This document shows positions 11,809-29,381 of a stretch of 32,000 nt of DNA, one piece after another. The DNA comes from Gemmata obscuriglobus (GTDB lineage Bacteria > Planctomycetota > Planctomycetia > Gemmatales > Gemmataceae): assembly GCF_008065095.1 (NCBI RefSeq), contig NZ_CP042911.1:3360001-3392000 (forward strand). The letters are read 5' to 3'. Below the pieces are notes generated by a model that searched no databases, was not told the origin of the DNA, and saw only the letters and a list, made by a program, of their open reading frames with translations. A program made the position numbers and the translations under genes. Position 1 is the stretch's first letter. Every line of letters begins with the position of its first letter.

Positions 11809-11894
11809 CGCCGACCGGAGTGGTTCCACCTGTTCTTCCCGGGTTGCTGCCCTTGATGGCACCGCAACCCGGTTCTAGAAGCATGTGACCGAGG

Positions 11895-13494: not shown

Positions 13495-13562
13495 TTGTGG
13501 CACAGACATTCCTGTCTGTGCGGCCTTCCCGCGTCGCACAGACAGGAATGTCTGTGCCACAA
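13495..13562. repeat. nested-palindrome (REP-like) element, copy 1
   Basis: The left arm is TTGTGGCACAGACATTCCTGTCTGTGC (13495-13521). A 14-nt spacer ggccttcccgcgtc follows. The right arm GCACAGACAGGAATGTCTGTGCCACAA (13536-13562) is the exact reverse complement. Each arm contains its own 8-bp hairpin (CACAGACA/TGTCTGTG, 4-nt loop). The arms are identical to copy 2 at 22455-22522. Confidence 0.8.
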
Positions 13563-13624
13563 AGGCAGCAGAGACAGTAGCCAACGACCGGGCCGTGGAT
13601 GAAGAAACAAAACGCACCAGAGTG

Positions 13625-14026: not shown

Positions 14027-14088
14027 ACGTAGCCTCAACGAAACGGGACTGGAACGGAGGTCGCGAGCGGCTCGCCGGAGCCGGCCTC

Positions 14089-14976: not shown

Positions 14977-15665
14977 GACGGGACTCCGCAGGTGGGAAAG
15001 GTGAACGGCAGGCCGACACGCGGATTGTAATCGCGTGCGGAGCGGAAACCTATCCCCAAGCCCTTCAGAACAACTGGCCGCGGGCCGCAGGCGGGCCGTC
15101 AGTATTGCTTCGGCTGGTGTGAGCCGATCTTTTGGGCCGCAGAACCACCATCGGGCAATTCGGCGACACATCGGGGTTTTCCTCCCACTACTTCCCGCTC
15201 GCGGCATTTCTCCGCCCTCGAACCACGCAAAACGGACCACCCGACACCGCGTTCCGATCCAAACCCGAAACCACTTGCGCGCATGCCACGCTTCGTAAGT
15301 TGCTGCGGAACATATTGCTACCTCCTGCCATGCTGACGCATCCGGGGCCGATCTCGAAGCATCCGCGGGTGTCGTATCCCGGTCCGAAGCCTGTGATTCG
15401 TGGGTAGCGACGACCCAGCGAAGTGGTAGCTCCGGACCAGTCCACCGGCAGCGAACGTCCAGTCGGCGACCCACCGAAGCGCGAACGGTGCGGTTGAAGT
15501 CCCGAACACCGCCAAGGCCGCCCAACAGCGCAGTACCCTAAAGACCAGATGGCACGGAGGTCCCGGCGGCGTATTGTCCGTTCAGTACGAGTTACCGGCT
15601 AATGTTTGTCGCAACGTGTCCGGCTGGAGTGGTGAGCAACCCATTTGAACGCGGAGGGCGTTGGC

Positions 15666-16848: not shown

Positions 16849-17781
16849 ATGAAGCTCTACATCCGCACTCAGGCCGCTGGCGAGCGGCGTGAACACGTCC
16901 AGTTCGATGAGTGTTACGAGGTGCGATCGCAAGCCGAATGGAGAGCCCACATCGAAGCTGTCGGTGCGAACATCATCACGTCCGTGCTGAAACCCGATGA
17001 GCATCGGTTCCAAATCCGCGGCAAGCACCTTTACACCAAGTCGCACCCGCACGAAACGCATTACACTTACGATTCCGAACTCCATGCGAGCTACCGTGAG
17101 GCCGCGAAGAAGCTCGCGCGCCGGCTCGAACCCGTTCTACACGGCACGCGGCGGTGTCTCGTGTACCTGCCGCTCCGCGGCGCGCTCCCGATCTGGCGGG
17201 CGGTGCGGGTCCACCTCAGCGCCGATGCCCGCGCTCGGTGTGAGGAGTACCACGCGGTCACGTCGAGCTTCGTGGCGTACCCCGAAGGGCTCAACATTCG
17301 TGGCCCGGGTGTGCGCGCCAGCGGTCGCTATGCGAACATCCTCGAACTGCGCCGGCTCCGCGACTGGTGCATCCGGTCGATGGGCTTTGATCACCTCCTT
17401 TACGTGGACGAAATCATCTCGGGCGGGATGATGCGGGGGCACGTCAACGAGATGATGGACCTTGGCGTTACGAGCCTCCTACCGGTAACGGTAGCGGCCC
17501 TCGCGGACTCGTTCGGTACGCGCTCGAAGGCGAACGGTTACCTCAACGGCCTCGCGGCCACCGGCAAGATCCATGCGTTCCTCTGGGAGGGTTGCCACAC
17601 TCTCGTTTCCGAGGACCAAAAGTTCACGCTCGGAACGCACTTCGTCGATCACGCCTTCGGCCCGCACGTCGTTCCCGTTCTCACAGACCAACTGTCTTGG
17701 TTCGACGAAAAAGCCCGCTTCGATCTCGATGTGGTCGGCGCGGTGGAGCCGTTCGCGCCGGTTGATGATGAACGGCTCTGA
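16849..17781 (+). CDS. phosphoribosyltransferase (PRTase)-like protein with ~85-aa N-terminal extension, island gene D
   Basis: 310 aa. A PRPP-loop-like motif is present (HLLYVDEIISGGMMRG: hydrophobic strand, acidic pair, then SGG). An upstream VYLPLRGALPIWRAV element resembles the RAG/RGG loop of type I PRTases. The first ~250 nt are visibly lower in GC (hand count 55-62% per 60-nt line, versus ~77% in one hisD line). Confidence 0.65.
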   Translation: MKLYIRTQAAGERREHVQFDECYEVRSQAEWRAHIEAVGANIITSVLKPDEHRFQIRGKHLYTKSHPHETHYTYDSELHASYREAAKKLARRLEPVLHGTRRCLVYLPLRGALPIWRAVRVHLSADARARCEEYHAVTSSFVAYPEGLNIRGPGVRASGRYANILELRRLRDWCIRSMGFDHLLYVDEIISGGMMRGHVNEMMDLGVTSLLPVTVAALADSFGTRSKANGYLNGLAATGKIHAFLWEGCHTLVSEDQKFTLGTHFVDHAFGPHVVPVLTDQLSWFDEKARFDLDVVGAVEPFAPVDDERL

Positions 17782-17969: not shown

Positions 17970-19286
17970 CTACTTCGCTTTGCTGCCTTCCGTTCGCTTC
18001 ACGACCACCAGCGTGCGGTCGTCGGCCGGCGTCGTGCCCGAGGTGAACAGCGCGTGCGACGCCAGGATCGAACGCAGCAGCGCGTTCGCCGTCGGGAGGC
18101 AGGTCTCCAGCTCCTCGTCGATCCGGGCGGAGCCGAACACGTCGCCGTCCGTGTTCACCGCCTCAATCACCCCGTCGGTGAACAGCACCACCTGATCGCC
18201 GGGGAGCAGCGGAAGCGTCTGTTCGAGGTACACTTCATCGGGCTTGATCCCGAGCGGCAGCTTCTGGGCGCGGTTGAGCGCGAGCTTGAACCCGTCCGCA
18301 CAGCGCAAGAGGCGCGGCGGGTTGTGACCCGCGCTCGCGTAGCTCAGGGTCGCGTTGATCGGGTCGAAGACGGCGTAGAAGGCGGTCATGAAGCTGCCCG
18401 TCGGGCGGGTGTACCGCCGCGTCAGGTGCGCGTTCATGTAGGTCAGGAACTCGCCCGGCCGCTGCGGCGGTTCGGGGCGCGTGTGGGCGATGCTGTGGGC
18501 CAGTGCCATCAGCACCGCCGCGGGCGCGCCGTGGCCGCTAGCGTCGGCGATCAGCACGCCCAACCGGTCGTTCGGCAGCGGGAAGAAGTCGTAGTAGTCG
18601 CCCCCGGCCCGCTTCGCCGTTTGGTAGTGGACGGCCACGTCCAGGTGCGGGACCTTCGGCAGGGCGGCCGGCAGCAGCGACTTCTGGATCTCCGCGATCG
18701 ACCGCAGTTCGTAGTCGAGCCCGTCGAACGCTTCCTTCACCGCCTGCGACAGCACCACCGTTTGCGTCGCCCGGGCGAACAGGTTGCTCAGCAGCAGCAG
18801 GTCCGGGACCCGCTCGCGCGGGAACGTGTCCACATCGTCGCGGGTGGCGATCACCATGTTCTGCGACGGGCCGCTCTCGACGTGCGGGATAGCGACCAGG
18901 GACCGCTGGCCGGCGAGGTACTCGCTCGCGGGGTCGTCCGGTTCGAGCCGCAGGTTGTCGATGACGCGCGGCTGGTCGGCGTACAGCAACTCGGCTAACA
19001 GCCCGCCGTGGTGCATGGGCAAGCGGTGCTGCTCCTTCCACGGGTTGACCGGCTCGTTCCACTGGCTGAATCGCGTGACCCGGTACTCCGGGTCGCGCAG
19101 CCCGCGGCGCGAGATGGTCAGGTGCCGGCTGACGGGGAACAGTTGCACCATGCGGCGCGCGAACACCGCGTACATCTCTTGGGGGTCGGCGGCGCGACTC
19201 AGTTCGCGCATCACCTCCACGCTGACGGCCAGCCTTGCCCGCCAGTTCCGCGGTTCGGTATCGAAGAAATCGGCTGCCACGGTCAT
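17970..19286 (-). CDS. GAF domain-containing PP2C-family (SpoIIE/RsbU-like) serine phosphatase
   Basis: 438 aa. The C-terminal half has SpoIIE motifs: QKSLLP..LP, GGDYYDFFPL, LGVLIADASGHGAPAAVLMA, TAFYAVFDP, YASAGHNPP, LFTDGVIEA and DDRTLVVVKR. The N-terminal ~180 aa look GAF-like. Confidence 0.85.
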   Translation of the reverse strand: MTVAADFFDTEPRNWRARLAVSVEVMRELSRAADPQEMYAVFARRMVQLFPVSRHLTISRRGLRDPEYRVTRFSQWNEPVNPWKEQHRLPMHHGGLLAELLYADQPRVIDNLRLEPDDPASEYLAGQRSLVAIPHVESGPSQNMVIATRDDVDTFPRERVPDLLLLSNLFARATQTVVLSQAVKEAFDGLDYELRSIAEIQKSLLPAALPKVPHLDVAVHYQTAKRAGGDYYDFFPLPNDRLGVLIADASGHGAPAAVLMALAHSIAHTRPEPPQRPGEFLTYMNAHLTRRYTRPTGSFMTAFYAVFDPINATLSYASAGHNPPRLLRCADGFKLALNRAQKLPLGIKPDEVYLEQTLPLLPGDQVVLFTDGVIEAVNTDGDVFGSARIDEELETCLPTANALLRSILASHALFTSGTTPADDRTLVVVKRTEGSKAK

Positions 19287-19702: not shown

Positions 19703-19806
19703 GAGGGAAACATGTGCCCGGTGTGCGGTTAGCACAATCTGGGGCGTGCCATGATGTCCCGCTCGGGCAGGTGGCCCCTCTTCACGCTGCCTGCGAGGTT
19801 CAACAG

Positions 19807-21231
19807 ATGCCAGCACTCAAGCTGCGGCGGATCGACCTTTCAGCCAACAACGCCGCGGCCCAGATCCTTAAGCTTCGCGACCAGTTTCGCACCGATGCCG
19901 ACATCTCATCGGCCGCCAGTAAGAAGAGGACTCTTGCCGTGTTCGGTGAGGCCCTGTCCCCGACGCGGGCCGTCGAACGCATTTGCAACGAAGTCCGAGA
20001 GAAGGGGCTGTCCGCGGCCCTGCATTACACCGAGCAATTCGATGGCGTGAAGCTGAAGTCCGACCAACTCAAGGTGAAGCCGGCGGAACTCGCCGAGGCC
20101 CACGCCAACGTCGGTGCCGACTTCCTCGAAGTCATCAAACAGATCCGGTACAACGTCGTTCAGTTCCAGTCCGGGTTGCTCCAGCGCGACGCGGTGATGC
20201 CGGTTTCCGGCAAGCACGAACTGACGGTGCGTTACCGGCCCCTGAAGCGGGTCGGCGTGTACTGCCCCGGCGGCGCCGCGGCGTACCCCTCGACGCTGCT
20301 CATGACCGTCTGCCCCGCGCAGGTGGCCGGGGTGGAGCAGATCGTCGTCTGTATGCCGCCCAACGCCACCGGCGGGTACAACCGCGAGATGCTCGCGACC
20401 TGTTACGAACTGGGCATCACCGAGGTGTATCGGCTCGGCGGCGCGCAGGCCATCGCCGCAATGGCCTATGGCGTGGAGGGGATCAAGCCGGTCGATATGA
20501 TCGTCGGTCCGGGCAACCAGTACGTCGCCCTGGCGAAGAAGCACGTGTTCGGGCAAGTGGCGATCGACTGCATCGCCGGCCCGAGCGAGGTGGTGGTGCT
20601 GGCCGACTACTCGGCCCACCCCGATTACGTCGCGCTCGACCTGATCGCGCAAGCCGAACACTCCCCGGGCGTCGCCGTGCTGGTCACCTGGCACGAGCAA
20701 CTCCTGGAAGAGATCCAGGACGCGCTTCAGAAGCGGCTGGCGAAACTCTCGCGCGGCGAACTGGCCCGTGAGAGCCTGGAGCGGTACGGCGCGCTCGTGT
20801 TCGCCCCGGACGAGCAGGCGGCCATCGACTGCACTAACGCGCTGGCGCCTGAGCACCTGCACATCCAGACCAAGGACCCCGAAGCCATCCTGGAGCGCAT
20901 CGACAACGCCGGGGCGGTGTTCCTCGGCCCGTTCACGCCGGTCGCGGTGGGCGACTACGCCGCCGGCCCGAGTCACGTGCTCCCCACCGGCGGCACCGCC
21001 CGGTTCGCGAGCGGCCTGACCACCAACGACTTCCGCAAGCGCACCAGCGTCATGCACTTCACCCGCAACGGGCTGAAGGAGATCGCGTCGGATGTGATCT
21101 TCCTGGCCAACAAGGAAGGGCTGACCGGCCACGCCGCCAGCGTCGAACTGCGGGCCAACGACAACGGCCCGATGAACCGGCCCAAGCCGAAGCCGGATAA
21201 GGTGCCCGCCGCCACGACCGCCAAGAAGTGA
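19807..21231 (+). CDS. hisD: histidinol dehydrogenase
   Basis: ATG at 19807 lies in frame within track ORF 19714..21231. The blocks PLKRVGVYCPGG.AAYPSTLLM, IAAMAYG, IVGPGNQYVALAKK, IAGPSEVVVLAD, QAEHSP and APEHLHI are canonical HisD. Confidence 0.9.
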   Translation: MPALKLRRIDLSANNAAAQILKLRDQFRTDADISSAASKKRTLAVFGEALSPTRAVERICNEVREKGLSAALHYTEQFDGVKLKSDQLKVKPAELAEAHANVGADFLEVIKQIRYNVVQFQSGLLQRDAVMPVSGKHELTVRYRPLKRVGVYCPGGAAAYPSTLLMTVCPAQVAGVEQIVVCMPPNATGGYNREMLATCYELGITEVYRLGGAQAIAAMAYGVEGIKPVDMIVGPGNQYVALAKKHVFGQVAIDCIAGPSEVVVLADYSAHPDYVALDLIAQAEHSPGVAVLVTWHEQLLEEIQDALQKRLAKLSRGELARESLERYGALVFAPDEQAAIDCTNALAPEHLHIQTKDPEAILERIDNAGAVFLGPFTPVAVGDYAAGPSHVLPTGGTARFASGLTTNDFRKRTSVMHFTRNGLKEIASDVIFLANKEGLTGHAASVELRANDNGPMNRPKPKPDKVPAATTAKK

Positions 21232-21342
21232 CACCACACCCGATTGAAGAGTAATCCCCTTCTGGGGTCGGCCTCACATCGGCCGGCTCCAGAATACGGC
21301 GTGGATACGGATCAATCGGCTTCGACTCTCGGACCTCCCCCG

Positions 21343-22413
21343 ATGACCGTTCGACCCAACGTCCGCGCCATGTCCGGCTACGTCCCGGGCGAGCAGCTCA
21401 ACGACCCCGAAATCGTCAAGCTGAACACGAACGAGAACCCGTACCCGCCCAGCCCGCGGGTGTTCGAGGCCGTCCGCGCGGCGCTCACGCCGAACAGCCT
21501 GCGCAAGTACCCGCAGCCCCTCGGCGACACGTTCCGCAAGGCCGCCGGCCGCGTGCTGAACGTCGATCCCGACGCCATCCTGATCGGCAACGGCTCCGAC
21601 GACATCCTGACCATCCTGACGCGCGCGTTCGTGCCCGAGGGCGGGCTGATCGCGTCCCCGACCCCCAGCTACATCCTCTACAAGAGCCTCGCGGAGATTC
21701 AGGGGGCGCGGTTCGCGGCTGTCCCGCTCACGGCGGACTGGCAGCCGGACGCCGACCGCTGGCCGCGCGACGCGCACCTCTCGTTCGTACCCAACCCGAA
21801 CTCGCCGTCCGGTACCGTCATCGCACCCGCGCAACTGGCTGCGTTGGCTGGGCTCGTTTCCCCGGCCCCGTTTGTCTGCGACGAGGCCTACGCCGATTTC
21901 GCCGACGGCAACAGCTTGGCACTGCTCCCGAGTGTGCCGAACCTTATCGTCACACGCACGATGAGCAAGTCGTACGCGCTGGCGGGTATCCGGTTCGGGT
22001 TCGCGGTCGCCCGCCCCGAACTCGTGCGCGAGTTGGTCAAGGTAAAAGACTCCTACAACTGCGACGTGCTGAGCCTGGCCGCAGCGACTGCGGCGATCGA
22101 AGACCAGGACTATTTCCGCGACATCCGCGCGAAGATCCGCGCCACCCGCGACCGGATGACAACCGACCTCACCGCCCTTGGGTTCGAGGTGACGCCCAGC
22201 CACGCGAACTTCGTGTGGTGCCGCCGCGCGGACCGCGCTCTCAAGCCGATTTACGAGGCACTCAAAGCGCGGAAGATCCTGGTGCGGTACATGAGCTACG
22301 CCGCCGGGCCGGTCGGGCACCCGGAGGGCTCGGCTTACGACGGCCTCCGAATCTCGGTCGGAACCGATACGGAAATCGACCAACTGTGCGCCGCACTGCG
22401 GACCTTTCTCTGA
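21343..22413 (+). CDS. hisC: histidinol-phosphate aminotransferase
   Basis: ATG at 21343 (MTVRPNVRAMSGYVPGEQ..VKLNTNENPYPPSP). A PLP-lysine region TMSKSYALAGIRFGF is present. The length and motifs are typical of HisC. Confidence 0.9.
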   Translation: MTVRPNVRAMSGYVPGEQLNDPEIVKLNTNENPYPPSPRVFEAVRAALTPNSLRKYPQPLGDTFRKAAGRVLNVDPDAILIGNGSDDILTILTRAFVPEGGLIASPTPSYILYKSLAEIQGARFAAVPLTADWQPDADRWPRDAHLSFVPNPNSPSGTVIAPAQLAALAGLVSPAPFVCDEAYADFADGNSLALLPSVPNLIVTRTMSKSYALAGIRFGFAVARPELVRELVKVKDSYNCDVLSLAAATAAIEDQDYFRDIRAKIRATRDRMTTDLTALGFEVTPSHANFVWCRRADRALKPIYEALKARKILVRYMSYAAGPVGHPEGSAYDGLRISVGTDTEIDQLCAALRTFL

Positions 22414-22454
22414 TTCACGGTTCGGTTGCGGGTGCCCGTTTTTGGCTAATACCC

Positions 22455-22522
22455 TTGTGGCACAGACATTCCTGTCTGTGCTGTCTTCTCACGCCGCACA
22501 GACAGGAATGTCTGTGCCACAA
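22455..22522. repeat. nested-palindrome (REP-like) element, copy 2 (hisC-hisB spacer)
   Basis: The two 27-nt arms are identical to copy 1 (TTGTGGCACAGACATTCCTGTCTGTGC ... GCACAGACAGGAATGTCTGTGCCACAA). The spacer is again 14 nt but has a different sequence (tgtcttctcacgcc). Confidence 0.8.
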
Positions 22523-22625
22523 ATAACAGACACCACCCGGACCGTGTAGGAGCCGGGGATCGCGCTCCATCGGGATCAGGTGACTGGAAGGACACGCCAC
22601 GCCGGCAAGGACTAAGCGAGCGACT

Positions 22626-23213
22626 ATGCCCCGTACCGCACGTATCCAGCGCAAGACGAACGAGACCGAGATCGACCTGACGTTGAACCTCGACGGCACC
22701 GGCACCGCTCAGTTGGCGACCGGCGTCGGGTTCTTCGACCACATGCTGACGCACATCGCGCGGCACGGGCTGTTCGACCTGTCGGTGAGCTGCAAGGGCG
22801 ACCTGCACATCGACGCGCACCACACGGTCGAGGACGTGGGCATCTGCTTCGGCAAGGCGCTGGTTCAGGCGCTCGGCGATAAGGCCGGCATCCGGCGGTT
22901 CGGGGACTGCACGCTCCCGATGGACGACGTGCTGGCGACCGCCGCCGCGGACCTGAGCGGGCGCCCGTACCTCGTGTGGCGCGCGAACGTCCCGCTGGAA
23001 ACGCTCGGATCGTTCTCCTCACAACTGGCGGAGGAGTTCTGGCGCGCCGCGAGTTCGACGGGGCTGTTCAACCTGCATGTTGTGTTGCACCACGGCCACA
23101 ACACGCACCACATCGTCGAAGCCATTTTTAAGGCGTGCGCCCGTGCGCTCCGCGCGGCGGTGGAACCGGACCCGCGGTCCACCGCGGTGCCGTCCACGAA
23201 GGGCGTTCTCTAG
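22626..23213 (+). CDS. hisB: imidazoleglycerol-phosphate dehydratase
   Basis: 195 aa. The blocks RKTNETEI..L.LDGTG, TGVGFFDHML, GDLHIDAHHTVEDVGI and HHGHNTHHIVEAIFKA are canonical IGPD motifs. Confidence 0.9.
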   Translation: MPRTARIQRKTNETEIDLTLNLDGTGTAQLATGVGFFDHMLTHIARHGLFDLSVSCKGDLHIDAHHTVEDVGICFGKALVQALGDKAGIRRFGDCTLPMDDVLATAAADLSGRPYLVWRANVPLETLGSFSSQLAEEFWRAASSTGLFNLHVVLHHGHNTHHIVEAIFKACARALRAAVEPDPRSTAVPSTKGVL

Positions 23214-23368
23214 CCCGTCGCGCCCCCGCTCCTATACTCACGACTTCGAGAACCGGACCCGGTCGTTAAGGGTCCGCCCGCGCGCAGGTCGCACTTGCCG
23301 ATTTCGCTCGGAACGCGCTTTCGCGCGCCGGTACGGACGGTTAAACTCCCGACGGTGAGGACACGGAC

Positions 23369-24328
23369 GTGGCAAAGAAACCAGCGGCCCCGGTTCCGGT
23401 TGCCGAACTTGTGCGGCTCGCGCTGTTGAACGTCGCGAACGCCACCGGCGACGTGAAACTCGGCGGCAAGGGCGGGCTGTTCCCCACCGCGAGCGGCCCG
23501 AACAAAGAGGCGGCCGACGCGTGCATGACCGCCGCCGTCCCCCTGCTGACGGTACTCCGGACCGAGGGGAAGGCGCAGATCGTCGGGCTGACGCCGGCGG
23601 GCTTCGAGCGGATCGCGGGCGAACTCGCCGAGGACAAGGTCGGACCGCTCGCGAAAGCGATCGCGGCAGCGGCACCGGCCGCGGCGCGGATCGAGTTCAT
23701 TCAGTCGGTAATCGGTCGAACTCCGTTCGCGGCGCCGGAACTGACTCCGCTGCTCGAAGAGGCGGTTGCGGCCGAAAAAGCCGAGCAAGAAGCGAGAATT
23801 GAAGCGGCGAAGAAGCGCCGCGAGGCGGAAGAGATCGCGCTCGCCGCACTGGAACGGGCGAAAGCCCTGCTCGAAGAGCGCCGCCGGAACCGGCTCGACG
23901 CGCTGCGTCGCGAATACGAACTCGAAGGCGCGAAGGCGACCGAGTTGCCCGAGCCCGCGCCGCGTGTGGAACCGCGCCCGGAGCCGAAGGCCGCCGCGCC
24001 CGCACCGGCATCGGCTCCGGAACCCAAGACGGACGAGGAGCGCGACTTCCGGCGGTACACCGCGGACCGACTCGCCGCCGCGTGGCGCGACGCCTGGACC
24101 GACGGGAAGACCGAGGGCCGCGACTACCTCGAAACGGCGATGTGGAACATCCGCGGGATGCAAATGATCGGCGAGCCCGGGCAGCAGATCGCGTTCAACG
24201 GCCGGGTCCACGAATCGGAGCAGCCGGCCGCCCCGGGAGACCCGCTCACCGTGCTGCGCCCGGGCTGGCTGCTCAAGACCGACGACGAGGATTACGTCGC
24301 GCTGAAGGCCGCGGTCGGCGACCTGTGA
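23369..24328 (+). CDS. hypothetical coiled-coil protein with GrpE-like C-terminal domain (319 aa)
   Basis: The GTG start has GGTGAGGA upstream. The N-terminal ~110 aa are globular. A long charged helix follows (AEKAEQEARIEAAKKRREAEEIALAALERAKALLEERRRNRLDALRREYELEG), then a Pro/Ala linker. The C-terminus is RGMQMIGEPGQQIAFNGRVHES....PGDPLTVLRPGWLLKTDDEDYVALKAAV. It resembles the GrpE beta-domain pattern G.e.I...G..FdP..HeA....PG.vv.V...GY.l..r.lRpA.V.V (comparison from memory). Confidence 0.6.
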   Translation: MAKKPAAPVPVAELVRLALLNVANATGDVKLGGKGGLFPTASGPNKEAADACMTAAVPLLTVLRTEGKAQIVGLTPAGFERIAGELAEDKVGPLAKAIAAAAPAAARIEFIQSVIGRTPFAAPELTPLLEEAVAAEKAEQEARIEAAKKRREAEEIALAALERAKALLEERRRNRLDALRREYELEGAKATELPEPAPRVEPRPEPKAAAPAPASAPEPKTDEERDFRRYTADRLAAAWRDAWTDGKTEGRDYLETAMWNIRGMQMIGEPGQQIAFNGRVHESEQPAAPGDPLTVLRPGWLLKTDDEDYVALKAAVGDL

Positions 24329-24356
24329 TACCCGTGTCGGCCGGTTGTGATCATTT

Positions 24357-24429
24357 TTGTGTCACGGACGCGCGCGTCCGTGTGCCTTCAGCGCCCGAAG
24401 CCGCACCGACCGGAACGTCGGTGCCACAA
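24357..24429. repeat. divergent member of the nested-palindrome family, copy 3
   Basis: The left arm is TTGTGTCAC-GGACG-CGCG-CGTCC-GTGTGC (24357-24385). A 17-nt spacer follows. The right arm is GCAC-CGACC-GGAA-CGTCG-GTGCCACAA (24403-24429). The termini match copies 1 and 2 (TTGTGKCAC / GTGCCACAA). The inner hairpin stems differ but remain self-complementary. Confidence 0.6.
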
Positions 24430-24481
24430 AGACCAAGCGCCAGTAACGGGCGCTCATAACCGGACCGGTGTGAGGTTCTCA

Positions 24482-25912
24482 ATGGCCGAGCGCGTGTTCT
24501 GCGTGGACTTCGGAACGTTCTACACCAAGGTCGCGCTCCGCTCGGCGCCCCAGGAAGCGGGGGCTCTGGTCCCGTGCTCGGACGAAGGGTTGGAGTTCTG
24601 GGCGCCCACTGTGGTCTCGGCGGACTGGACGCGGGGCGAGGCGCGTCTGGAGTTCGGGCACCGTGCGGCCGATGTCAAACCGGGCGGCAAGGTCGTCGTT
24701 TACTCGAACTTCAAACGGGAGCTGTTCGCTCCGCCGCCGGCGCAAGGCCCGGACCTCCACCCGATCGACGCGCTGTTGCGGTCCGAAGAGTTCGAGGCGC
24801 TGGCCGCCAAACACGGCGTGCTGCCGGCGTGGGTCGCGGGCCTCCGGTCGCTGACCACCTCGGCCCGGACCCTCTTCGGCACCCCGGACGCGAGCCCCGG
24901 CGGCGCGGCGGCCCGGCGGCAGGAAGAGGCGAAGCGGCTCACCTACCACTACTTCAAGTGGCTCCGGGAGTGCGTGCTGAAGGCGTGCGAGCGGCTCCCG
25001 CACACCGCGCTGAACTACAAGGACATCCCGCTCCGGATCACCGTCCCGCTGTTCGGGCCGATCGAAACGCTCGCCCAGCACCCGGGGTGCGTGCGGCTGC
25101 GCGACGCGCTGGCGTCGGCCGGCTGGCCGCTCGCCGACCCGCTGTTCGTGTCGGAGCCCGAAGCCAACGCGGTCGGGATCTTGACGAAGGCGGTCAACGC
25201 GCTCACCGTCCGCACGAAGAAGATCAACTTCCGCGAGATGTTCAACCGCGGCCCGCTCATCACGGTGCTGGCCGGCGACGCGCACCACCCGACCTACCGC
25301 GCCCTGGTGATCGACGTGGGCACGTTCACGAGCGACTTCGCCGCCCTCGGGATCGACACCGGCGGGAAAGAGGTTGACACGTCCAACGGTGCCGGTTTCG
25401 GGGTGACCCAGCAGTCGATCGCGTTCGGCATTTCGGACCTCGATGCGACCGTGCGGGACGCGCTGCCCGAGGAGAAGCGGGCCGCGCTGAACGGGATGGC
25501 GCGAAAGGACTTCGCGGCGTTCCAGGTGAGCGCGTACAGCGCCGAGACCGGTTACCGGATCGGCCCCGGGAAGGTGATCGGCGGCTCCGCCGACCGGCCG
25601 ATCGTCGAGAGCTGCCTCGCCGCCTTCTGCACGCGCCTCACGGACGAGACCACGGCCTTCCTCCAGCAACTCGGCCCGGCGTCGATGCAGGAGCTGATCC
25701 TCACCGGGGGCGGCAGCAACATCCCCGCGGTCCGCGAGGCGCTCATCAAGGCCGCCGCCGCGACCCCGGGCGCCGCGTTCGTGAAGACCCACGCCCCGGG
25801 CCTCAAGAAGGTGAAGTCCGGCCCGCCGGTCGACTCGCTCGACGACAAGTTCGCCCGCGGCGCGACCGCGCTCGGCGGTGCCAGCCTCTACTTCGAGCGC
25901 GAGTACTTCTGA
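24482..25912 (+). CDS. Hsp70/actin-fold (ASKHA) ATPase, nucleotide-binding domain only (476 aa)
   Basis: ATG at 24482 has GTGAGG upstream. The upstream part of track ORF 24347.. covers the repeat element. The motifs are phosphate-1 VFCVDFGTFYTKVAL, connect-1 VSEPEANAVG, phosphate-2 ALVIDVGTFTSDFAAL, adenosine ELILTGGGSNIPAVREAL and connect-2 ARGATALGGA. No Hsp70 substrate-binding domain is present. Confidence 0.8.
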   Translation: MAERVFCVDFGTFYTKVALRSAPQEAGALVPCSDEGLEFWAPTVVSADWTRGEARLEFGHRAADVKPGGKVVVYSNFKRELFAPPPAQGPDLHPIDALLRSEEFEALAAKHGVLPAWVAGLRSLTTSARTLFGTPDASPGGAAARRQEEAKRLTYHYFKWLRECVLKACERLPHTALNYKDIPLRITVPLFGPIETLAQHPGCVRLRDALASAGWPLADPLFVSEPEANAVGILTKAVNALTVRTKKINFREMFNRGPLITVLAGDAHHPTYRALVIDVGTFTSDFAALGIDTGGKEVDTSNGAGFGVTQQSIAFGISDLDATVRDALPEEKRAALNGMARKDFAAFQVSAYSAETGYRIGPGKVIGGSADRPIVESCLAAFCTRLTDETTAFLQQLGPASMQELILTGGGSNIPAVREALIKAAAATPGAAFVKTHAPGLKKVKSGPPVDSLDDKFARGATALGGASLYFEREYF

Positions 25913-26022
25913 CCCGCCCCGCGGCAGGGTGGGTTTGCGTGGTAGCGGGTTCGTGTGTACCATTCGCACAGTCACGGCCACGCGATGGTTCGCAACGCCG
26001 GCGCCACCACCGAACACCCGCT

Positions 26023-27576
26023 ATGTCTTCACAACCCGTCACGTTCCCGTGTTCCTTCTGCACGCGCCGGATGGGCGTACCGGCCGAACTCCTCGGGCGA
26101 CAGGTCCGGTGCCCGCACTGCAAGCAGGTCGTCGTCGCGCCCGCCACCGCCGGCGCCGCCCCGGAGATCGTGCCCCCGCCTCCGCCCCCGCCCGCTCCCG
26201 TTCCCCCACCGGAGCCAGAACTGCGGTCGTTCGACCTGCCGGTGCAGAAGGAAGAGGCCGACAGCATCCTGAGCGACCCCCACGAGTCCGAAGACGAGGT
26301 GTTCGGGTCCAGTACCGCCTCGCGCCTTCGGACCCTGACGCGCGAGCCGGCCCCGGAACCGGTGGCCCCGGCGCCCGCCCGCCCGATCAACGCCGGGCCG
26401 GCACCGGTCGCGGGTGGGTCGGCTCCCGCCCACCCCTTTAGCAGCTCGCTCCCGCTCCCAAACCTGCCGGCGCCCGTGAAGGCACCGCTCCCGCAACCGG
26501 TCGCGAAACCGACGGCACTCGCCCCCGCCGACGATCCCAAACCTGCACCGCCGCCAGCGCCAGCGGCCCCACCGTCGCCGCCGAAATCGACGCCCGCGCC
26601 GCCCCCCGCGCCCGCACTGGACAACCCGTTCGCGCTGCTCAGCGCCATCCAGTCTGCCGCGAAGACGCCCGCGCTCGCACCCGCCGTCGAGGAGCGGCTC
26701 GAAACCGGCGAAGACGAGCCAGCTCAAACGAAGAAGCGCAAGGAACGAGACGAGGAGCCTGAAGAGCGGCCGATGCGGGCGACCTCTGGTCGCGCCGGCG
26801 GTGGTGCCGGAGGCGCGAAGACCGTGCTGCTGGTGGTTCTGGCGGGCTACGCGTTCATCGCCACCGTGGCCGCCGTGTACGGACTGTTTTTCCGCTCCGG
26901 GACGCCCGCCGGGCACCCGCTTTCCACCATCCCGGACACCTTCGGCGAGTTCGACCCCGTGAGCCGGAAGAAGGTCACCCAGGCGACGTTCCCGGTAGAC
27001 GGCCCGCTGCCGCCCGAGTTGCGCGCCGGGCTCGGCAACACGATCTCCATCGGTCAGCTCGAAGTCCAGCCGACGAAGGTCGAGAAGCGCAAGCTCGCGA
27101 TCCGGGTCGCGGGGACCGACGACCGTGAGGCCGAGCGCACGATGTACCCCGGCCCGGCGCTGGTCATGACGCTCGACATCAAGAACACGTCGCCGGATCT
27201 GCCGATCCTGCCGATGGACCCGGCGTTCACCCGGCGCGAGGCCGCGAGCGATCAGCCGATTACCCGACTCGTCACGAGCAAGCGGGCGTTCTACGGCGGC
27301 GAAATCGAGTGGCCGTGGCCGAAGGGGGTGAAAAGGAAGATCGAGGTGCAACAGGGCAACGACGCGATCCCGCTGCGACCGGGCGAAAGCCGCGAGTACG
27401 TGGTGTTCACGGCCGCCGGCGCGGACCTGATCCGCACCGCCGAGGCCGAGAAAGGCCCGTTGCAGTGGCGGGTGCAGTTGCGCCGCGGGCTGATCGAGTA
27501 CAAGGGGAAGGAGGTCCCGGTTACGGCGGTGATCGGGGTGGACTTCCAGGCGGCCGACATCCGCACGCCCGACTGA
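26023..27576 (+). CDS. zinc-ribbon / proline-rich linker / single TM / beta-rich extracytoplasmic domain protein (517 aa)
   Basis: ATG at 26023. The N-terminus CSFCTRRMGVPAELLGRQVRCPHCKQVV is a CxxC-x17-CxxC ribbon of the MJ0042 type. About 230 aa of Pro/Ala-rich sequence follow. The TM helix is VLLVVLAGYAFIATVAAVYGLFF. The C-terminal ~200 aa have a beta-sandwich-like pattern (DIKNTSPDLPILP...LRPGESREYVVFT), reminiscent of DUF4352-type domains. Confidence 0.75.
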   Translation: MSSQPVTFPCSFCTRRMGVPAELLGRQVRCPHCKQVVVAPATAGAAPEIVPPPPPPPAPVPPPEPELRSFDLPVQKEEADSILSDPHESEDEVFGSSTASRLRTLTREPAPEPVAPAPARPINAGPAPVAGGSAPAHPFSSSLPLPNLPAPVKAPLPQPVAKPTALAPADDPKPAPPPAPAAPPSPPKSTPAPPPAPALDNPFALLSAIQSAAKTPALAPAVEERLETGEDEPAQTKKRKERDEEPEERPMRATSGRAGGGAGGAKTVLLVVLAGYAFIATVAAVYGLFFRSGTPAGHPLSTIPDTFGEFDPVSRKKVTQATFPVDGPLPPELRAGLGNTISIGQLEVQPTKVEKRKLAIRVAGTDDREAERTMYPGPALVMTLDIKNTSPDLPILPMDPAFTRREAASDQPITRLVTSKRAFYGGEIEWPWPKGVKRKIEVQQGNDAIPLRPGESREYVVFTAAGADLIRTAEAEKGPLQWRVQLRRGLIEYKGKEVPVTAVIGVDFQAADIRTPD

Positions 27577-27685
27577 AATCCTGAAATCCGGCGCGGGGGT
27601 TGAACCTCCCGGCCCCGTGCGGCATCATGAACAACGCACAGGCGTGCAGGCTGAGGATCAGGTTCCGGCTCAACCGCGGCCAAGA

Positions 27686-27830
27686 AGAGTGTGGGTTCGA
27701 GTCCCACCCCCGCCACTCCCTTTGGGAAGTCAAAAGGGGCCAGTAGAAAGGCGAACGGCGACCGAAGATGTTGTTGCCCCACTTTCCCCTTGTGCCTTGT
27801 TTCTGGCGGGGTAGCCCAACGGTAGAGGCG
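27686..27830 (+). ncRNA. tRNA-like half-set X: T-arm + acceptor 3' strand, 90-nt insert, then acceptor 5' strand + D-arm
   Basis: The T arm is GTGGG-TTCGAGT-CCCAC (27691-27707). CCCCGCC (27708-27714) plus A follows, with no encoded CCA. Downstream, GGCGGGG (27805-27811) is a 7/7 complement, followed by TA and the D-arm GCCC-AACGGTAG-AGGC (27814-27829). No anticodon-type stem was found. The identity is uncertain (pseudo-tRNA or structured RNA). Confidence 0.4.
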
Positions 27831-27909
27831 ATACGGCTGCCCCCAGGTTCAGGTTGTCACGCCAAGCTCAAACCCGTGCCGAGGTGCCCAATCGAACGAC
27901 CGGCTCCAA

Positions 27910-27988
27910 CCAACCTATAGTGGTTCGAATCCATTCCCCCGCGCTTCGCCCGACCCACGCGGGGGTTGCCTAACGGTAAGGCAGTTGG
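27910..27988 (+). ncRNA. tRNA-like cloverleaf core encoded in circularly permuted order (acceptor stem closed by a 14-nt loop; YrlA/Y-RNA-like tRNA mimic candidate)
   Basis: The order on the + strand is as follows. CCAAC (27910-14), CTAT, then T arm AGTGG-TTCGAAT-CCATT (27919-35). CCCCCGC (27936-42), G, then the loop CTTCGCCCGACCCA. C, GCGGGGG (27959-65), TT, then D arm GCCT-AACGGTA-AGGC (27968-82). A, then GTTGG (27984-88). All four stems pair (7, 4, 5 and 5 bp, with one G-U). U8, A14, G18G19, A21, G53, T54T55C56, A58 and C61 are all in place. Confidence 0.55.
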
Positions 27989-28070
27989 TCAACAAACTCA
28001 AAGCCGGCGACCGGATACTGTGAGCACTCCCTGAGACGGCACACCTACACGCGCGAGCGAGAGGGACCCA

Positions 28071-28113
28071 GCCCCGGCGAGCCGGCGAAAGCTCGACCGG
28101 GGCGCTTTTATTT
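28071..28113 (+). terminator. strong rho-independent terminator ending the tRNA-like RNA locus, 8 nt before the cca-family ATG
   Basis: GCCCCGG-CGAGC (28071-28082), the loop cggcgaaa, then GCTCG-A-CCGGGGC (28091-28103). That is 12 bp with one bulge, followed by gc TTTTATTT (28106-28113). Confidence 0.7.
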
Positions 28114-28121
28114 CCGCACCC

Positions 28122-29381
28122 ATGACCGACCGCGAGTTTGCTCTTAGTGTGGTCCGCACCCTTCAGTCCGCCGGGTTCACCGCTCTCTGGGCCGGCGGGT
28201 GCGTGCGCGACGAGTTCCTCGGGCTCGTGCCCGAAGACTACGACGTGGCCACGTCGGCGCGACCGGAGCAGTTGCGCCCGCTGTTCCGCCGGCGGAACGA
28301 GATCGGCGCGCACTTCGGTGTGGTGCAGGTCATCGGCCCGAAGAAGGCCGACGGCACCTGGCACACCATCGAGGTGGCGAGCTTCCGGTCCGACGGCGCG
28401 TACACCGACGGGCGCCGCCCGGACACCGTCACCTTCTCCACGCCCGAAGAGGACGCGCAGCGGCGCGACTTCACCGTCAACGGAATGTTCTTCGACCCTG
28501 TTCGGAACGAGCTGCTCGACTTCGTGGGCGGCCGGGCGGACCTGGACGCGAAGGTGCTGCGCGCGATCGGCGACCCCTTCGCACGGTTCACCGAGGACAA
28601 GCTCCGCATCCTGCGCGCGGCCCGCATGGCGACGCGGTTCGGGCTCGCCATCGACCCCACCACCCGTGACGCCGCGCAACAAATGGCGCCGCAGGTGAGC
28701 GTGGTTTCGGCCGAGCGGGTTGCCGAGGAGTTGCGGAAGCTGTTCGCCCACCCGAACCGCACACGCGGGCTCGCGCTGCTTCGCGAGCTGGGGCTCATCG
28801 AACCGATTTTGCCGGAACTGACACCCTCAGCGGATCGTGCCAGCGCGGCACTCGCGGCGCTGAGCGAAGTGGGCGGGCGGCTCCCCTTTCCTCTCGCGTT
28901 CGCGGTCACACTCCACGCGGTCGGCAGAGCGGTCACGGAACGCGTCGCCGAGCGGCTGAAGCTCTCGAACGTTGAGAGCGACCGTCTCTGCTGGCTGGTG
29001 GCGAACCAGAGCGTGCTGACCGATGCCGAGGTCATGCGCCCGAGTAAGCTCAAACCGCTGCTGGTTCACCCGGGCATCGACGACTTGCTCGCGCTCCACC
29101 GGGCGCTGGCGACCGCGACCGGCGGGAGCCTGGCCCCGGTCGAGTTCTGTACACGCGTCCTGCGGGACACGCCGCCCGAGGAACTGAACCCGCCGCCCGT
29201 GCTGACCGGGGCGGACCTGATCGCCCGGGGGCTGAAGCCCGGTCCGGCGTTCAAGCGCCTGCTCGATGCCGTTCGGGAAGCCCAGCTCGAAGGGCGGGCG
29301 GCGACGAAGGAGCAGGGGCACGCCCTGGTAACCCGGCTGCTCGCGGAACCGGGAGACGCGCCTGAACCACCGCCGGGGTAG
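28122..29381 (+). CDS. cca: CCA-adding enzyme / poly(A) polymerase family (class II) tRNA nucleotidyltransferase
   Basis: 419 aa. The N-terminal head motif is LWAGGCVRDEFLGLVPEDYDVATSARPEQ. The blocks FRSDGAYTDGRRP, RDFTVNGMFFD, F.EDKLRILRAARMATR are canonical for the PolyA_pol/Cca family. CCA-adding versus A-adding or PAP specificity cannot be decided by eye. Confidence 0.85.
   Translation: MTDREFALSVVRTLQSAGFTALWAGGCVRDEFLGLVPEDYDVATSARPEQLRPLFRRRNEIGAHFGVVQVIGPKKADGTWHTIEVASFRSDGAYTDGRRPDTVTFSTPEEDAQRRDFTVNGMFFDPVRNELLDFVGGRADLDAKVLRAIGDPFARFTEDKLRILRAARMATRFGLAIDPTTRDAAQQMAPQVSVVSAERVAEELRKLFAHPNRTRGLALLRELGLIEPILPELTPSADRASAALAALSEVGGRLPFPLAFAVTLHAVGRAVTERVAERLKLSNVESDRLCWLVANQSVLTDAEVMRPSKLKPLLVHPGIDDLLALHRALATATGGSLAPVEFCTRVLRDTPPEELNPPPVLTGADLIARGLKPGPAFKRLLDAVREAQLEGRAATKEQGHALVTRLLAEPGDAPEPPPG

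What the first reader, a model, noticed from the sequence alone, without database searches (positions are those of the whole stretch)
23369..27576. Three-gene cluster resembling a non-canonical, membrane-tethered Hsp70-type machine (GrpE-like protein, SBD-less ASKHA ATPase, zinc-ribbon membrane protein)
Three co-directional genes have short gaps (153 and 110 nt) and follow hisB without functional relation to histidine synthesis. The first is a 319-aa protein with a long charged coiled coil and a GrpE-like beta-domain tail. The second is a 476-aa protein with all five Hsp70/actin-fold ATPase motifs but no substrate-binding domain. The third is a 517-aa protein with a cytoplasmic CxxC...CxxC zinc ribbon, a ~230-aa proline-rich spacer, one TM helix and an extracytoplasmic beta-rich domain.

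The domain logic (ATPase, putative exchange factor, zinc-finger partner) parallels DnaK-GrpE-DnaJ. However, every component is truncated or rebuilt, and one is membrane-spanning. I do not recognise this as a described system. It could instead be an actin-like (ParM/MamK/PilM-type) cytoskeletal module with an adaptor.
Basis: partly seen in the sequence, partly recalled or inferred. Interest (0 to 1): 0.65.

Follow-up and report, generated by a model that had tools for sequence, protein, structure and literature searches.

The report
Hsp70-like ATPase with its own GrpE-like partner
Two of the three genes form a conserved, undescribed pair found in several bacterial phyla: a stripped-down Hsp70-type ATPase and a dedicated GrpE-like partner, while the third (membrane) gene is only a lineage-specific neighbour.

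Summary
All three ORFs exist exactly as described (319, 476 and 517 aa; gaps of 153 and 110 nt).

**p2, the ATPase.** It gives a confident model (pLDDT 90.5). Its 50 best PDB matches are all Hsp70 nucleotide-binding domains. The Hsp70 catalytic motifs are invariant, and there is no linker or substrate-binding domain.

**p1, the partner.** The model shows a winged-helix N-domain, a 67-residue helix, a disordered linker, then a helix pair plus beta-domain. GrpE structures are its top PDB matches, but weakly (E = 0.16). A profile-profile comparison with real GrpE sequences gives P = 1.4e-5; the best control gave 0.023.

**The pair.** The p1 C-domain lies directly upstream of a p2 homologue in 60 of 64 testable loci. 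These come from Gemmataceae, Verrucomicrobiota, Gemmatimonadota and Myxococcota. The usual gap is about 9-20 nt.

**p3, the membrane protein.** It has a zinc ribbon, a proline-rich spacer, one TM helix and a domain of unknown family. It has no J-domain. It is adjacent to p2 in only 9 of 24 Gemmataceae loci, and elsewhere it sits beside ThuA/SpoIIE genes.

**Verdict.** This is a new variant of the Hsp70/GrpE theme, as a two-gene module. The three-part, membrane-tethered machine is not supported. Function is unknown.

The parts
23369..24328 (+). p1: 319-aa partner or adaptor protein (winged-helix domain, long helix, linker, GrpE-like C-domain)
   Evidence: ORF. 68 homologues. Model pLDDT 88. Its C-domain lies immediately upstream of p2 homologues in 60 of 64 testable loci.
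23399..23623 (+). p1 residues 11-85: winged-helix-like N-terminal domain
   Evidence: Secondary structure. Weak Foldseek matches to forkhead, PadR, MarR and ScpB (E 0.4-4) and to TubR. The domain is replaced by a long, different N-region in Gemmatimonadota homologues.
23723..23923 (+). p1 residues 119-185: single 67-residue charged helix, a putative dimerising coiled coil
   Evidence: Model. 45% charged residues and 63% hydrophobic residues at a/d positions in the best heptad phase. Dimerisation was not tested.
24032..24319 (+). p1 residues 222-317: helix pair plus beta-domain. This GrpE-like module is the conserved core of the p1 family.
   Evidence: GrpE is the top PDB match (3a6m, 9bls, 9blt, 4ani) but with E 0.16-1.8. 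hhalign against a GrpE alignment gives Prob 75-80%, P 1.4e-5 to 2.6e-5. Controls gave 0.023 or worse. G..F-D/N-x-x-x-H aligns with GrpE G..FDPxxH, and PGW aligns with KGY.
24329..24481 (.). 153-nt spacer between p1 and p2, unusually long for this gene pair
   Evidence: The typical gap in other loci is about 9 nt in Gemmataceae and about 20 nt in Verrucomicrobiota. Only the window and G. algarum (L003, 156 nt) have the long spacer. No plus-strand terminator or sigma-70 promoter match was found.
24482..25912 (+). p2: 476-aa Hsp70-NBD-like ATPase without linker or substrate-binding domain
   Evidence: Model pLDDT 90.5, pTM 0.85. Foldseek top 50 are all Hsp70 NBDs, E 5e-13 to 2e-11. Catalytic motifs are invariant. 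hhalign maps E225, D278, T283 and D285 to DnaK E171, D194, T199 and D201. No Pfam, NCBIfam or PADLOC family reaches threshold.
26023..27576 (+). p3: 517-aa zinc-ribbon / Pro-rich / single-TM protein with an extracytoplasmic domain. It is a lineage-specific neighbour and is not shown to belong to the module.
   Evidence: ORF. 127 homologues, all with Gemmataceae-type labels where labelled. Motifs and TM segment. Variable location.
26044..26136 (+). p3 residues 8-38: CxxC...CxxC zinc ribbon
   Evidence: C10, C13, C30 and C33. Zn_ribbon Pfam families match 11 of 37 homologues weakly. MJ0042-type and RpoP-type weak hits.
26821..26892 (+). p3 residues 267-290: transmembrane helix
   Evidence: Kyte-Doolittle 19-residue mean of 2.4. 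My own count from the sequence gives about 9 K/R in the 30 residues on the N-side of the TM and 4 on the C-side; this favours an N-in topology (inference).

Best explanation
The core feature is a two-gene module, p1 plus p2, not a trio.

**p2.** It is an ATP-hydrolysing nucleotide switch of the Hsp70 type. It keeps the whole four-lobed nucleotide-binding domain and its catalytic residues, but has no interdomain linker and no substrate-binding domain. It carries lineage-variable insertions: about 50 aa of helices in lobe IB, and about 35 aa before the phosphate-2 motif.

**p1.** It is the dedicated partner. Its conserved C-terminal helix pair plus beta-domain is GrpE-like. By analogy with GrpE-DnaK, this module is inferred to dock on lobes IB/IIB of p2, open the cleft and control ADP/ATP exchange. 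The 67-residue helix probably dimerises p1. The variable N-terminal part would couple the ATPase cycle to a target (DNA or protein). That part is a winged helix in Planctomycetes and Verrucomicrobiota, and a long, different N-terminal region in Gemmatimonadota.

**Consequence.** Without a substrate-binding domain the pair cannot act as a general chaperone. It is more likely a specialised regulatory or remodelling switch.

**p3.** It is a membrane protein that happens to follow p2 in one Gemmataceae clade.

**Shown:** the folds, the motifs, the tight gene pairing and the phyletic spread. **Inferred:** physical interaction, exchange-factor activity, dimerisation and the cellular role.
For: **p2 is Hsp70-NBD-like.**
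- Foldseek top 50 are all Hsp70 NBDs over the full length, with target-normalised TM-scores of 0.41-0.66 (mostly 0.55-0.66).
- Profile search against PDB sequences puts DnaK and BiP first, though weakly (E 0.013).
- The Hsp70 motifs NEPTAAA-like (EPxxNAxG), DxGxxTxD and LGGxDxD-like (G-I-S-D-L-D) align with DnaK.
- These residues are invariant or nearly so.

**p1 C-domain is GrpE-like.**
- GrpE is the top PDB match.
- hhalign against 11 real GrpE sequences gives P 1.4e-5 to 2.6e-5 in the same register. Reversed and shuffled controls gave 0.023 or worse.
- Conserved residues coincide with the GrpE signature positions.
- An independent public annotation calls the Urbifossiella pair 'Hsp70 family protein' and 'Nucleotide exchange factor GrpE'.

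**The pairing is tight.**
- The p1 C-domain lies directly upstream of p2 in 60 of 64 loci. Gaps run from -38 to +51 nt except for L003 (156 nt), as in the window (153 nt). The loci span Gemmataceae, Verrucomicrobiota, Gemmatimonadota and Myxococcota.
- No other neighbour is conserved across all the distant loci.
- Tandem duplicated pairs occur in L059 and L062.

**The family is distinct.** It is small and separate from canonical Hsp70: 342 representatives at E <= 1e-10 among 1.84 billion.
Against: - No sequence model recognises either protein. Pfam HSP70 and GrpE are absent even at E <= 10 for 44 p1 homologues.
- A profile of the p1 C-domain finds no GrpE among PDB sequences.
- The Foldseek GrpE matches are not statistically significant on their own (E 0.16-1.8).
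- Unlike GrpE, p1 has a roughly 35-residue disordered linker between the long helix and the helix pair.
- No complex prediction, interaction data or activity data exist.
- Weak sub-threshold matches of p2 and its distant relatives to ParM-like PRTRC_D, MreB-like_C, PilM_2 and Actin keep a cytoskeletal reading open.
Confidence: 0.55

Rival explanations
1. p2 is a cytomotive, filament-forming actin-like ATPase (ParM, AlfA or MamK style). p1 is its adaptor, linking DNA or another cargo to the filament through the winged-helix domain, as ParR, AlfB or TubR do.
For: - ASKHA fold.
- Weak hits to PRTRC_D (ParM-like, E 0.006) and to MreB-like_C, PilM_2, Actin and Salactin for distant members.
- MamK, MreB and FtsA appear at E 0.1-0.5.
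- p1 has a winged-helix N-domain with a weak TubR match.
- The two-gene 'ATPase plus adaptor' logic fits.
Against: - All 50 best structural matches are Hsp70 NBDs, not actins or ParM.
- Hsp70-type motifs align with DnaK.
- The conserved part of p1 is the GrpE-like C-domain, while the winged helix is replaced in Gemmatimonadota.
- No iterated centromere-like repeats lie around the genes.
- The adaptor gene is upstream, not downstream as in the parMRC, alfAB and alp7AR loci (from my own knowledge of those systems).
- In Gemmataceae it is a chromosomal core locus beside the his genes.
Confidence: 0.15
2. p2 is an NBD-only DnaK derivative that acts as a co-chaperone of the canonical DnaK (an Hsp110-like exchange factor or disaggregation enhancer) through NBD-NBD contacts. 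This role is proposed for bacterial DnaK 'derivates' in PMC13580251. p1 would modulate that activity.
For: - The fold and catalytic motifs are Hsp70-like.
- The family occurs in large-genome, 'complex' bacteria (Gemmataceae, Myxococcota, Verrucomicrobiota). This is the setting in which such derivatives are reported (PMC13580251).
Against: - p2 is far more diverged than the described derivatives, which are 'recognizable by a well-conserved NBD'. It gets no Pfam HSP70 hit, and canonical Hsp70s do not appear at E <= 1e-3 in the library search (537 hits in all).
- It has its own GrpE-like partner, which points to a self-contained cycle.
- No dnaK, dnaJ or canonical grpE lies nearby.
Confidence: 0.12
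3. All three genes work together. p3 is the membrane receptor or tether, its cytoplasmic zinc ribbon or conserved acidic motif recruiting the p1-p2 switch.
For: - p3 directly follows p2 in the window and in 8 further loci (L002-L005, L007, L009, L020, L048, plus L013 at 1.4 kb).
- A p3 homologue also lies 1.7 kb from a distant (28% identity) p1-p2 pair in L038.
- The cytoplasmic region of p3 carries conserved short motifs (ADSILSxPxESxDEVF, NPF) that look like docking peptides.
Against: - p3 is absent within 8 kb in 15 of 24 Gemmataceae loci and in all Verrucomicrobiota, Gemmatimonadota and Myxococcota loci.
- In Fimbriiglobus ruber and other Gemmataceae it is next to ThuA/SpoIIE genes.
- One genome keeps p3 but has hisB-ACP_PD-cca with no p1-p2 at this locus.
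- It has no J-domain or HPD motif.
Confidence: 0.1
4. The pair is an anti-phage or conflict system.
For: - Patchy, multi-copy and tandemly duplicated occurrence in Verrucomicrobiota MAGs.
- A weak PADLOC hit of the p2 C-terminus to candidate PDC-M61B (E 1e-4).
- Hsp70-like domains occur in CoCoNuT restriction systems (PMC11090510).
Against: - No effector domain.
- No PADLOC family for p1 or p3, no PHROG match and no viral structural match.
- In Gemmataceae it is a single-copy gene pair in conserved ThuA-SpoIIE-hisDCB synteny.
- Neighbours in Verrucomicrobiota look like housekeeping genes. By eye, one resembles the tRNA thiolase MnmA and one an M23-type peptidase; neither was confirmed with a family search.
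Confidence: 0.06

Closest known systems
DnaK-GrpE (the bacterial Hsp70 and its nucleotide exchange factor)
   Same: - An adjacent gene pair in the order exchange factor then ATPase, as in the hrcA-grpE-dnaK operons seen in L080 and L081.
- p2 has the Hsp70 NBD fold and catalytic residues.
- p1 has a long helix followed by a helix pair plus beta-domain. GrpE signature positions are conserved.
   Different: - No interdomain linker, substrate-binding domain or lid in p2.
- No J-protein in the cluster.
- Both proteins fall below every sequence-family threshold.
- p1 has an extra winged-helix N-domain and a disordered linker.
- p2 has two insertions.
- The family is small: 342 representatives at E <= 1e-10.
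NBD-only DnaK derivatives (E. coli YegD; the Myxococcus 'derivates' reviewed in PMC13580251)
   Same: Hsp70-type NBD without a substrate-binding domain, found in large-genome bacteria, function unknown.
   Different: - Those proteins are recognisable as DnaK relatives by sequence. p2 is not.
- No dedicated GrpE-like partner gene is mentioned for them in the passages I read.
Anabaena All4144, a GrpE carrying a helix-turn-helix domain (bioRxiv 10.1101/2025.04.14.648684, abstract seen)
   Same: A GrpE-type module combined with an HTH domain in one protein.
   Different: All4144 is a bona fide GrpE that works with canonical DnaK. p1 is not recognised by the GrpE sequence models and is paired with an SBD-less ATPase.
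Type II plasmid partition (ParM/ParR) and TubZ/TubR
   Same: A two-gene 'nucleotide-driven ATPase or GTPase plus winged-helix or RHH adaptor' logic. p2 has the actin-superfamily fold.
   Different: - p2 is structurally nearer to Hsp70 than to ParM.
- No centromere repeats.
- The conserved part of the adaptor is GrpE-like, not the DNA-binding domain.

Membership tests
Hsp70/DnaK family | Four-subdomain actin-like nucleotide-binding domain most similar to Hsp70 NBDs | tested here: met
   Foldseek against PDB: the top 50 are all Hsp70 NBDs, E 5e-13 to 2e-11, target-normalised TM 0.41-0.66, on a model with pLDDT 90.5.
Hsp70/DnaK family | Match to the Pfam HSP70 (PF00012) or NCBIfam DnaK models above the curated cut-off | tested here: not met
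   No HSP70 hit at E <= 1 in Pfam or NCBIfam. Profile against PDB sequences gives only E 0.013.
Hsp70/DnaK family | Catalytic and nucleotide-binding residues (DnaK D8, K70, E171, D194, T199, D201, GG of the adenosine motif) | tested here: met
   D9, K78, E225, D278, T283, D285 and G409-411 are invariant in 50 homologues. hhalign register for residues 171-334 is.
Hsp70/DnaK family | Hydrophobic interdomain linker plus substrate-binding domain (beta-basket and helical lid) | tested here: not met
   The protein ends at residue 476 with the last NBD helix. All homologues are 470-490 aa.
GrpE family | Match to the Pfam GrpE (PF01025) model | tested here: not met
   No GrpE hit for p1, nor for any of 44 homologues at E <= 10.
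GrpE family | C-terminal helix pair plus compact beta-domain fold | tested here: inconclusive
   The model shows H222-244, H248-259 and six strands over 264-317. GrpE structures rank 1, 2, 4, 5, 6 and 13 in PDB, but with E 0.16-1.8.
GrpE family | Profile similarity including the signature G..FDPxxHxA and GY positions | tested here: met
   hhalign of 67 p1 C-domains against 11 GrpE sequences: Prob 75-80%, P 1.4e-5 to 2.6e-5. Reversed control 0.16, 30 column shuffles 0.16 or worse, 10 block shuffles 0.023 or worse.
GrpE family | Dimerisation through long N-terminal helices and nucleotide-exchange activity on the partner ATPase | not testable with these tools
   A 67-residue helix is predicted. 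No multimer prediction or biochemistry was available.
DnaJ / J-domain proteins (for p3) | J-domain with HPD motif, and a CxxCxGxG zinc-finger repeat domain | tested here: not met
   No HPD and only two CxxC motifs. No DnaJ Pfam hit in 37 homologues, only generic zinc-ribbon families.
ParM-type (type II) partition system | ParM-like ATPase family match, centromere repeats, downstream adaptor | tested here: not met
   PRTRC_D scores only 15.6 bits against a cut-off of 214.8. No iterated repeats. The adaptor-like gene is upstream.
Known or candidate anti-phage defence systems (PADLOC) | Match of the component proteins to a PADLOC model | tested here: not met
   Only a partial hit of p2 residues 392-468 to PDC-M61B, E 1e-4. 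Nothing for p1 or p3.

The most novel reading that the evidence does not exclude
The p1-p2 pair is a self-contained Hsp70-type nucleotide switch with its own exchange factor. It has been repurposed away from protein folding. In PVC-type and other 'complex' bacteria it would drive a DNA- or membrane-linked remodelling or regulatory process through the winged-helix domain of p1. In the Gemmata clade it would do so through the membrane protein p3, whose conserved cytoplasmic acidic and NPF motifs would be the docking sites. This would be a new functional class of Hsp70 machine.
Probability: 0.2. Interest if true: 0.8.

Novelty: new variant of a known kind. Interest (0 to 1): 0.55.

Why it matters
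NBD-only Hsp70 relatives are common in large-genome bacteria, and their function is an acknowledged open question (PMC13580251). This family offers an unusually clean handle on that question.

- It has a defined two-component system: the ATPase plus its own GrpE-like partner.
- It is conserved across at least four phyla.
- In Gemmataceae it is single-copy and part of the core genome.

If p1 is a true exchange factor, GrpE-type regulation is not restricted to chaperoning Hsp70s. The pair would also give a tractable way to ask what an Hsp70 engine does without a client-binding domain. It would further supply a name and a testable role for several hundred 'hypothetical protein' clusters.

Tried and rejected
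**Searches that recognised nothing.**
- Pfam, NCBIfam, PADLOC and PHROGs scans of the three proteins.
- Pfam scans of distant homologues.
- Sequence-profile search of the p1 C-domain against PDB found no GrpE.
- The p3 profile against PDB found nothing.
- Foldseek of p1 against viral structures found nothing significant.
- tblastn found no canonical grpE in the window or in the related loci.
- Six literature searches found no description of this pair. The Hsp70-like domains of CoCoNuT systems have a different architecture: NBD plus SBD plus HEAT repeats in McrBC operons.

**Ideas rejected.**
- p3 as a DnaJ analogue: rejected (no J-domain, variable location).
- A ParMRC-like locus: judged unlikely (no repeats, Hsp70-like fold).
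- The longer p2 ORF starting at 24347: rejected because the 45-aa extension is absent from all homologues.


Full report
**1. Observation**

The three co-directional ORFs are present as described.
- p1 is 23369-24328 (GTG start, 319 aa).
- p2 is 24482-25912 (476 aa).
- p3 is 26023-27576 (517 aa).
- The gaps are 153 and 110 nt.

hisD (19714-21231), hisC (21244-22413) and hisB (22626-23213) lie upstream. A PolyA_pol/CCA-adding-type nucleotidyltransferase gene (28122-29381) lies downstream.

Alignments with homologues fix the starts.
- All p2 homologues begin at MAERVF, so the longer ORF from 24347 is not used.
- The first CxxC of p3 is conserved wherever the N-terminus was called in full, so the 517-aa reading is right.

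The window comes from a Gemmata genome. The proteins are about 97% identical to those of Gemmata algarum, and the source contig is 9.03 Mb.

**2. p2 is an Hsp70-type nucleotide-binding domain and nothing else**

No curated family recognises it (Pfam, NCBIfam, PADLOC). Public names go no further than 'acetate and sugar kinases/Hsc70/actin family protein'.

An AlphaFold model built on 50 homologues is confident (pLDDT 90.5, pTM 0.85). Its 50 best PDB matches are all Hsp70 NBDs: DnaK, HSPA6, mortalin, BiP, Ssz1 and Hsc70. They have E 5e-13 to 2e-11 and full-length coverage.

Sequence evidence agrees.
- A profile puts DnaK and BiP first among PDB chains, but only at E of about 0.01. MamK, MreB and FtsA follow at 0.1-0.5.
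- hhalign aligns p2 residues 171-334 with DnaK 122-243. This matches VSEPEANAVG to INEPTAAALAYG, VIDVGTFTSDFA to VYDLGGGTFDIS, and GISDLD to GGEDFD.
- The corresponding residues are invariant in the family, as are D9/G11/T15/K16, K78 and GGG409-411. An active ATPase is therefore likely.

The chain ends with the last NBD helix. There is no linker and no substrate-binding domain. Relative to DnaK there are two insertions: helices in the 94-169 region (lobe IB), and about 35 residues before the phosphate-2 motif. The first insertion is not matched in distant relatives (two-stretch hits), so it is lineage-variable.

**3. p1 has a GrpE-like C-terminal module**

The model (pLDDT 88) shows the following parts.
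- A winged-helix-like domain at residues 11-85.
- Short helices.
- One 67-residue helix at 119-185, with 45% charged residues.
- A disordered Pro-rich linker at 186-221.
- Two helices (222-259) followed by a six-stranded beta-domain (264-317).

Foldseek against PDB ranks GrpE structures 1, 2, 4, 5, 6 and 13 (T. thermophilus 3a6m, human GrpEL1 9bls/9blt, Geobacillus 4ani). However, E is only 0.16-1.8. The N-domain matches forkhead, PadR, MarR and ScpB winged helices equally weakly.

Sequence HMMs see nothing.
- No Pfam GrpE hit in 44 homologues at E <= 10.
- No GrpE among PDB sequences when searched with a C-domain profile.

I therefore collected ten GrpE genes from annotated plasmid or chromid records and added E. 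coli GrpE. My typed copy of the E. coli sequence proved 99.5% identical to the database copy. I compared this alignment with a 67-sequence p1 C-domain alignment.
- hhalign gave Prob 75-80% and P 1.4e-5 to 2.6e-5 over 52-64 columns.
- The match covers the last helix and the beta-domain of GrpE (E. coli residues 126-190).
- p1 G..F-D/N-G-R-x-H aligns with GrpE G..F-D-P-x-x-H. The invariant p1 PGW aligns with GrpE KGY.
- Controls were far weaker: reversed alignment 0.16, best of 30 column shuffles 0.16, best of 10 block shuffles 0.023.

One public annotation independently names the Urbifossiella limnaea pair 'Hsp70 family protein' and 'Nucleotide exchange factor GrpE'.

I regard a GrpE-like C-domain as likely (about 0.7) but not proven.

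**4. The conserved unit is the pair**

A scan of one genome per species found 74 loci with p2 relatives.
- Gemmataceae and other Planctomycetes: 38-97% identity.
- MAGs labelled Verrucomicrobiota, Gemmatimonadota and Myxococcota: 22-31% identity.
- Several MAG labels are obviously wrong.

An HMM of the p1 C-domain hits the ORF immediately upstream of p2, on the same strand, in 60 of the 64 loci that have enough upstream sequence.
- The gap is typically 9 nt in Gemmataceae and about 20 nt in Verrucomicrobiota. Some pairs overlap.
- The exceptions are L028 (686-nt gap), L029, L047 and L049.
- Clustering of neighbours in the distant loci finds no other gene family conserved across them all. L059 and L062 carry two pairs in tandem.

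The N-terminal part of p1 varies. It is a winged helix in Planctomycetes and Verrucomicrobiota, and a long, different N-terminal region of 450-500 aa in Gemmatimonadota. The C-domain is constant. This is what one expects of an adaptor with a fixed ATPase-binding module.

The p2 family is small and distinct. A profile search of 1.84 billion representatives returns 537 proteins at E <= 1e-3, 342 at E <= 1e-10 and 233 at E <= 1e-30. Canonical Hsp70s are therefore not reached.

Within Gemmataceae the pair sits in conserved ThuA-SpoIIE-hisD-hisC-hisB-p1-p2 synteny. That pattern indicates vertical inheritance as a core locus rather than a mobile island.

**5. p3 is not a consistent partner**

p3 has the following features.
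- An N-terminal zinc ribbon (C10, C13, C30, C33).
- A 23%-proline spacer with two conserved short motifs (about ADSILSxPxESxDEVF, and NPF).
- One TM helix at residues 267-290.
- A conserved domain of about 225 aa with no family or PDB match.
- No HPD motif, no J-domain and no DnaJ-type CxxCxGxG repeats.

p3 follows p2 in 9 loci, all from the clade nearest the window. It is missing within 8 kb in 15 other Gemmataceae loci. In several of these cca directly follows p2 (L017, L023 and L033, about 650 nt apart; about 1.5 kb in L015). It is missing from every distant locus except L038. There a p3 homologue lies 1.7 kb away on the opposite strand, behind an oxidoreductase gene.

Elsewhere p3 homologues sit next to ThuA and/or SpoIIE genes: Fimbriiglobus ruber L085, L087/L090 and L088. 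One such genome has hisD-hisC-hisB-ACP_PD-cca with no p1-p2 at that site. The window itself has ThuA (14089-15525, minus strand) and SpoIIE (17970-19286, minus strand) just upstream of hisD.

So p3 moves about within a conserved chromosomal region. It does not travel with p1-p2. A functional link in the Gemmata clade is not excluded, but there is no positive evidence for it.

**6. Mechanism**

The best-supported reading is an Hsp70-type ATP/ADP switch (p2) whose nucleotide exchange is controlled by a dedicated, probably dimeric, GrpE-like partner (p1). The variable N-terminal domain of p1 supplies the target. Without a substrate-binding domain the pair cannot be a general chaperone.

The folds, motifs and gene linkage are shown. 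The interaction, the exchange activity, the dimerisation and the cellular role are inferred.

The rivals are:
- an actin-like filament with an adaptor;
- an Hsp110-like co-chaperone of the canonical DnaK, as proposed for bacterial NBD-only 'derivates' (PMC13580251);
- a defence system.

None is excluded by experiment. The first and the last fit the structural and genomic data less well.

**7. Comparison and novelty**

NBD-only DnaK derivatives such as YegD are a recognised but uncharacterised class. A GrpE fused to an HTH domain has been reported in Anabaena.

I found no description of a family with both of these properties:
- the Hsp70-like ATPase and the GrpE-like protein have both diverged below every sequence-model threshold;
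- they nevertheless remain an obligate adjacent pair across phyla.

I classify it as a new variant of a known kind. Interest is moderate to fairly high for chaperone and PVC cell-biology specialists, and limited by the lack of any functional clue.

Noticed in passing
window 27577-28121 (spacer between p3 and the PolyA_pol/CCA-type gene): This 545-nt spacer contains tRNA-like pieces in circularly permuted order. There is a T-arm plus 3' acceptor strand at 27691-27717 and again at 27921-27946. There is a 5' acceptor strand plus D-arm at 27806-27830 and again at 27959-27985. ARAGORN finds no tRNA. Rfam gives only a weak YrlA (Y RNA-like) match (17 bits against a gathering score of 69, E 0.97). 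GGTTCGARTCC occurs twice where 0.08 is expected. Segment 27915-27990 folds as T-arm, closed acceptor and D-arm hairpins, but with no significant z-score. Related genomes have only 36-100 nt here, so the spacer is an insertion. It lies directly upstream of a tRNA nucleotidyltransferase-family gene.
   Followed up: partly
window 24329-24481: The p1-p2 spacer is 153 nt here and 156 nt in G. algarum (L003). Almost every other locus has about 9-20 nt. The extra sequence has no recognised promoter or plus-strand terminator. It does contain a terminator-like hairpin on the minus strand (24434-24456).
   Followed up: partly
window 26230-26300 and about 26700 (p3 residues about 70-95 and about 225): Two short motifs are conserved inside the otherwise hypervariable proline-rich cytoplasmic region of p3. 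One is an acidic motif (about K-E-G-A-D-S-I-L-S-E-P-x-E-S-D-D-E-V-F-G). The other is an N-P-F-A motif. They look like docking peptides for an unknown partner.
   Followed up: no
L059 7120-11307 and L062 7214-11351 (Verrucomicrobiales MAGs): Two p1-p2 pairs lie in tandem. The same MAGs carry further unlinked copies (L032, L047 and L059 in one; L035 and L062 in another). The pair has therefore expanded into a small paralogous family in some Verrucomicrobiota.
   Followed up: partly
L090 1-5013, compared with window 19714-29381: A Gemmataceae-related genome has hisD-hisC-hisB-ACP_PD-cca with no p1-p2 between hisB and cca. It keeps a p3 homologue beside SpoIIE-ThuA about 5 kb away. Several genes in this record are fragmented, so assembly quality is doubtful.
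   Followed up: partly
L048 7338-8333: Only p1 residues 1-117 and p2 residues 361-473 are detectable, about 320 nt apart. This suggests an internal deletion (or a masked or misassembled stretch) that removes most of the pair while p3 and cca remain.
   Followed up: no
loci L022, L024, L036, L038, L046, L051, L064, L066, L069: Contigs carrying this Planctomycetes/Verrucomicrobiota-type gene pair are labelled Alcaligenaceae, Bacteroidales, Akkermansia muciniphila, Enterobacteriaceae or Bifidobacteriaceae in their record titles. These are probably MAG mislabels, so phylum counts taken from titles are approximate.
   Followed up: no
window 11895-12632 (minus strand) and 3623-5554 (plus strand): Strong matches to families of unknown function: DUF7873 (E 9e-94, full length) and DUF885 (E 1e-108). 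Several other long ORFs gave no Pfam match at E <= 1e-5: 2496-3608, 5615-6931, 10831-11862, 13370-14032 and 16849-17781.
   Followed up: no
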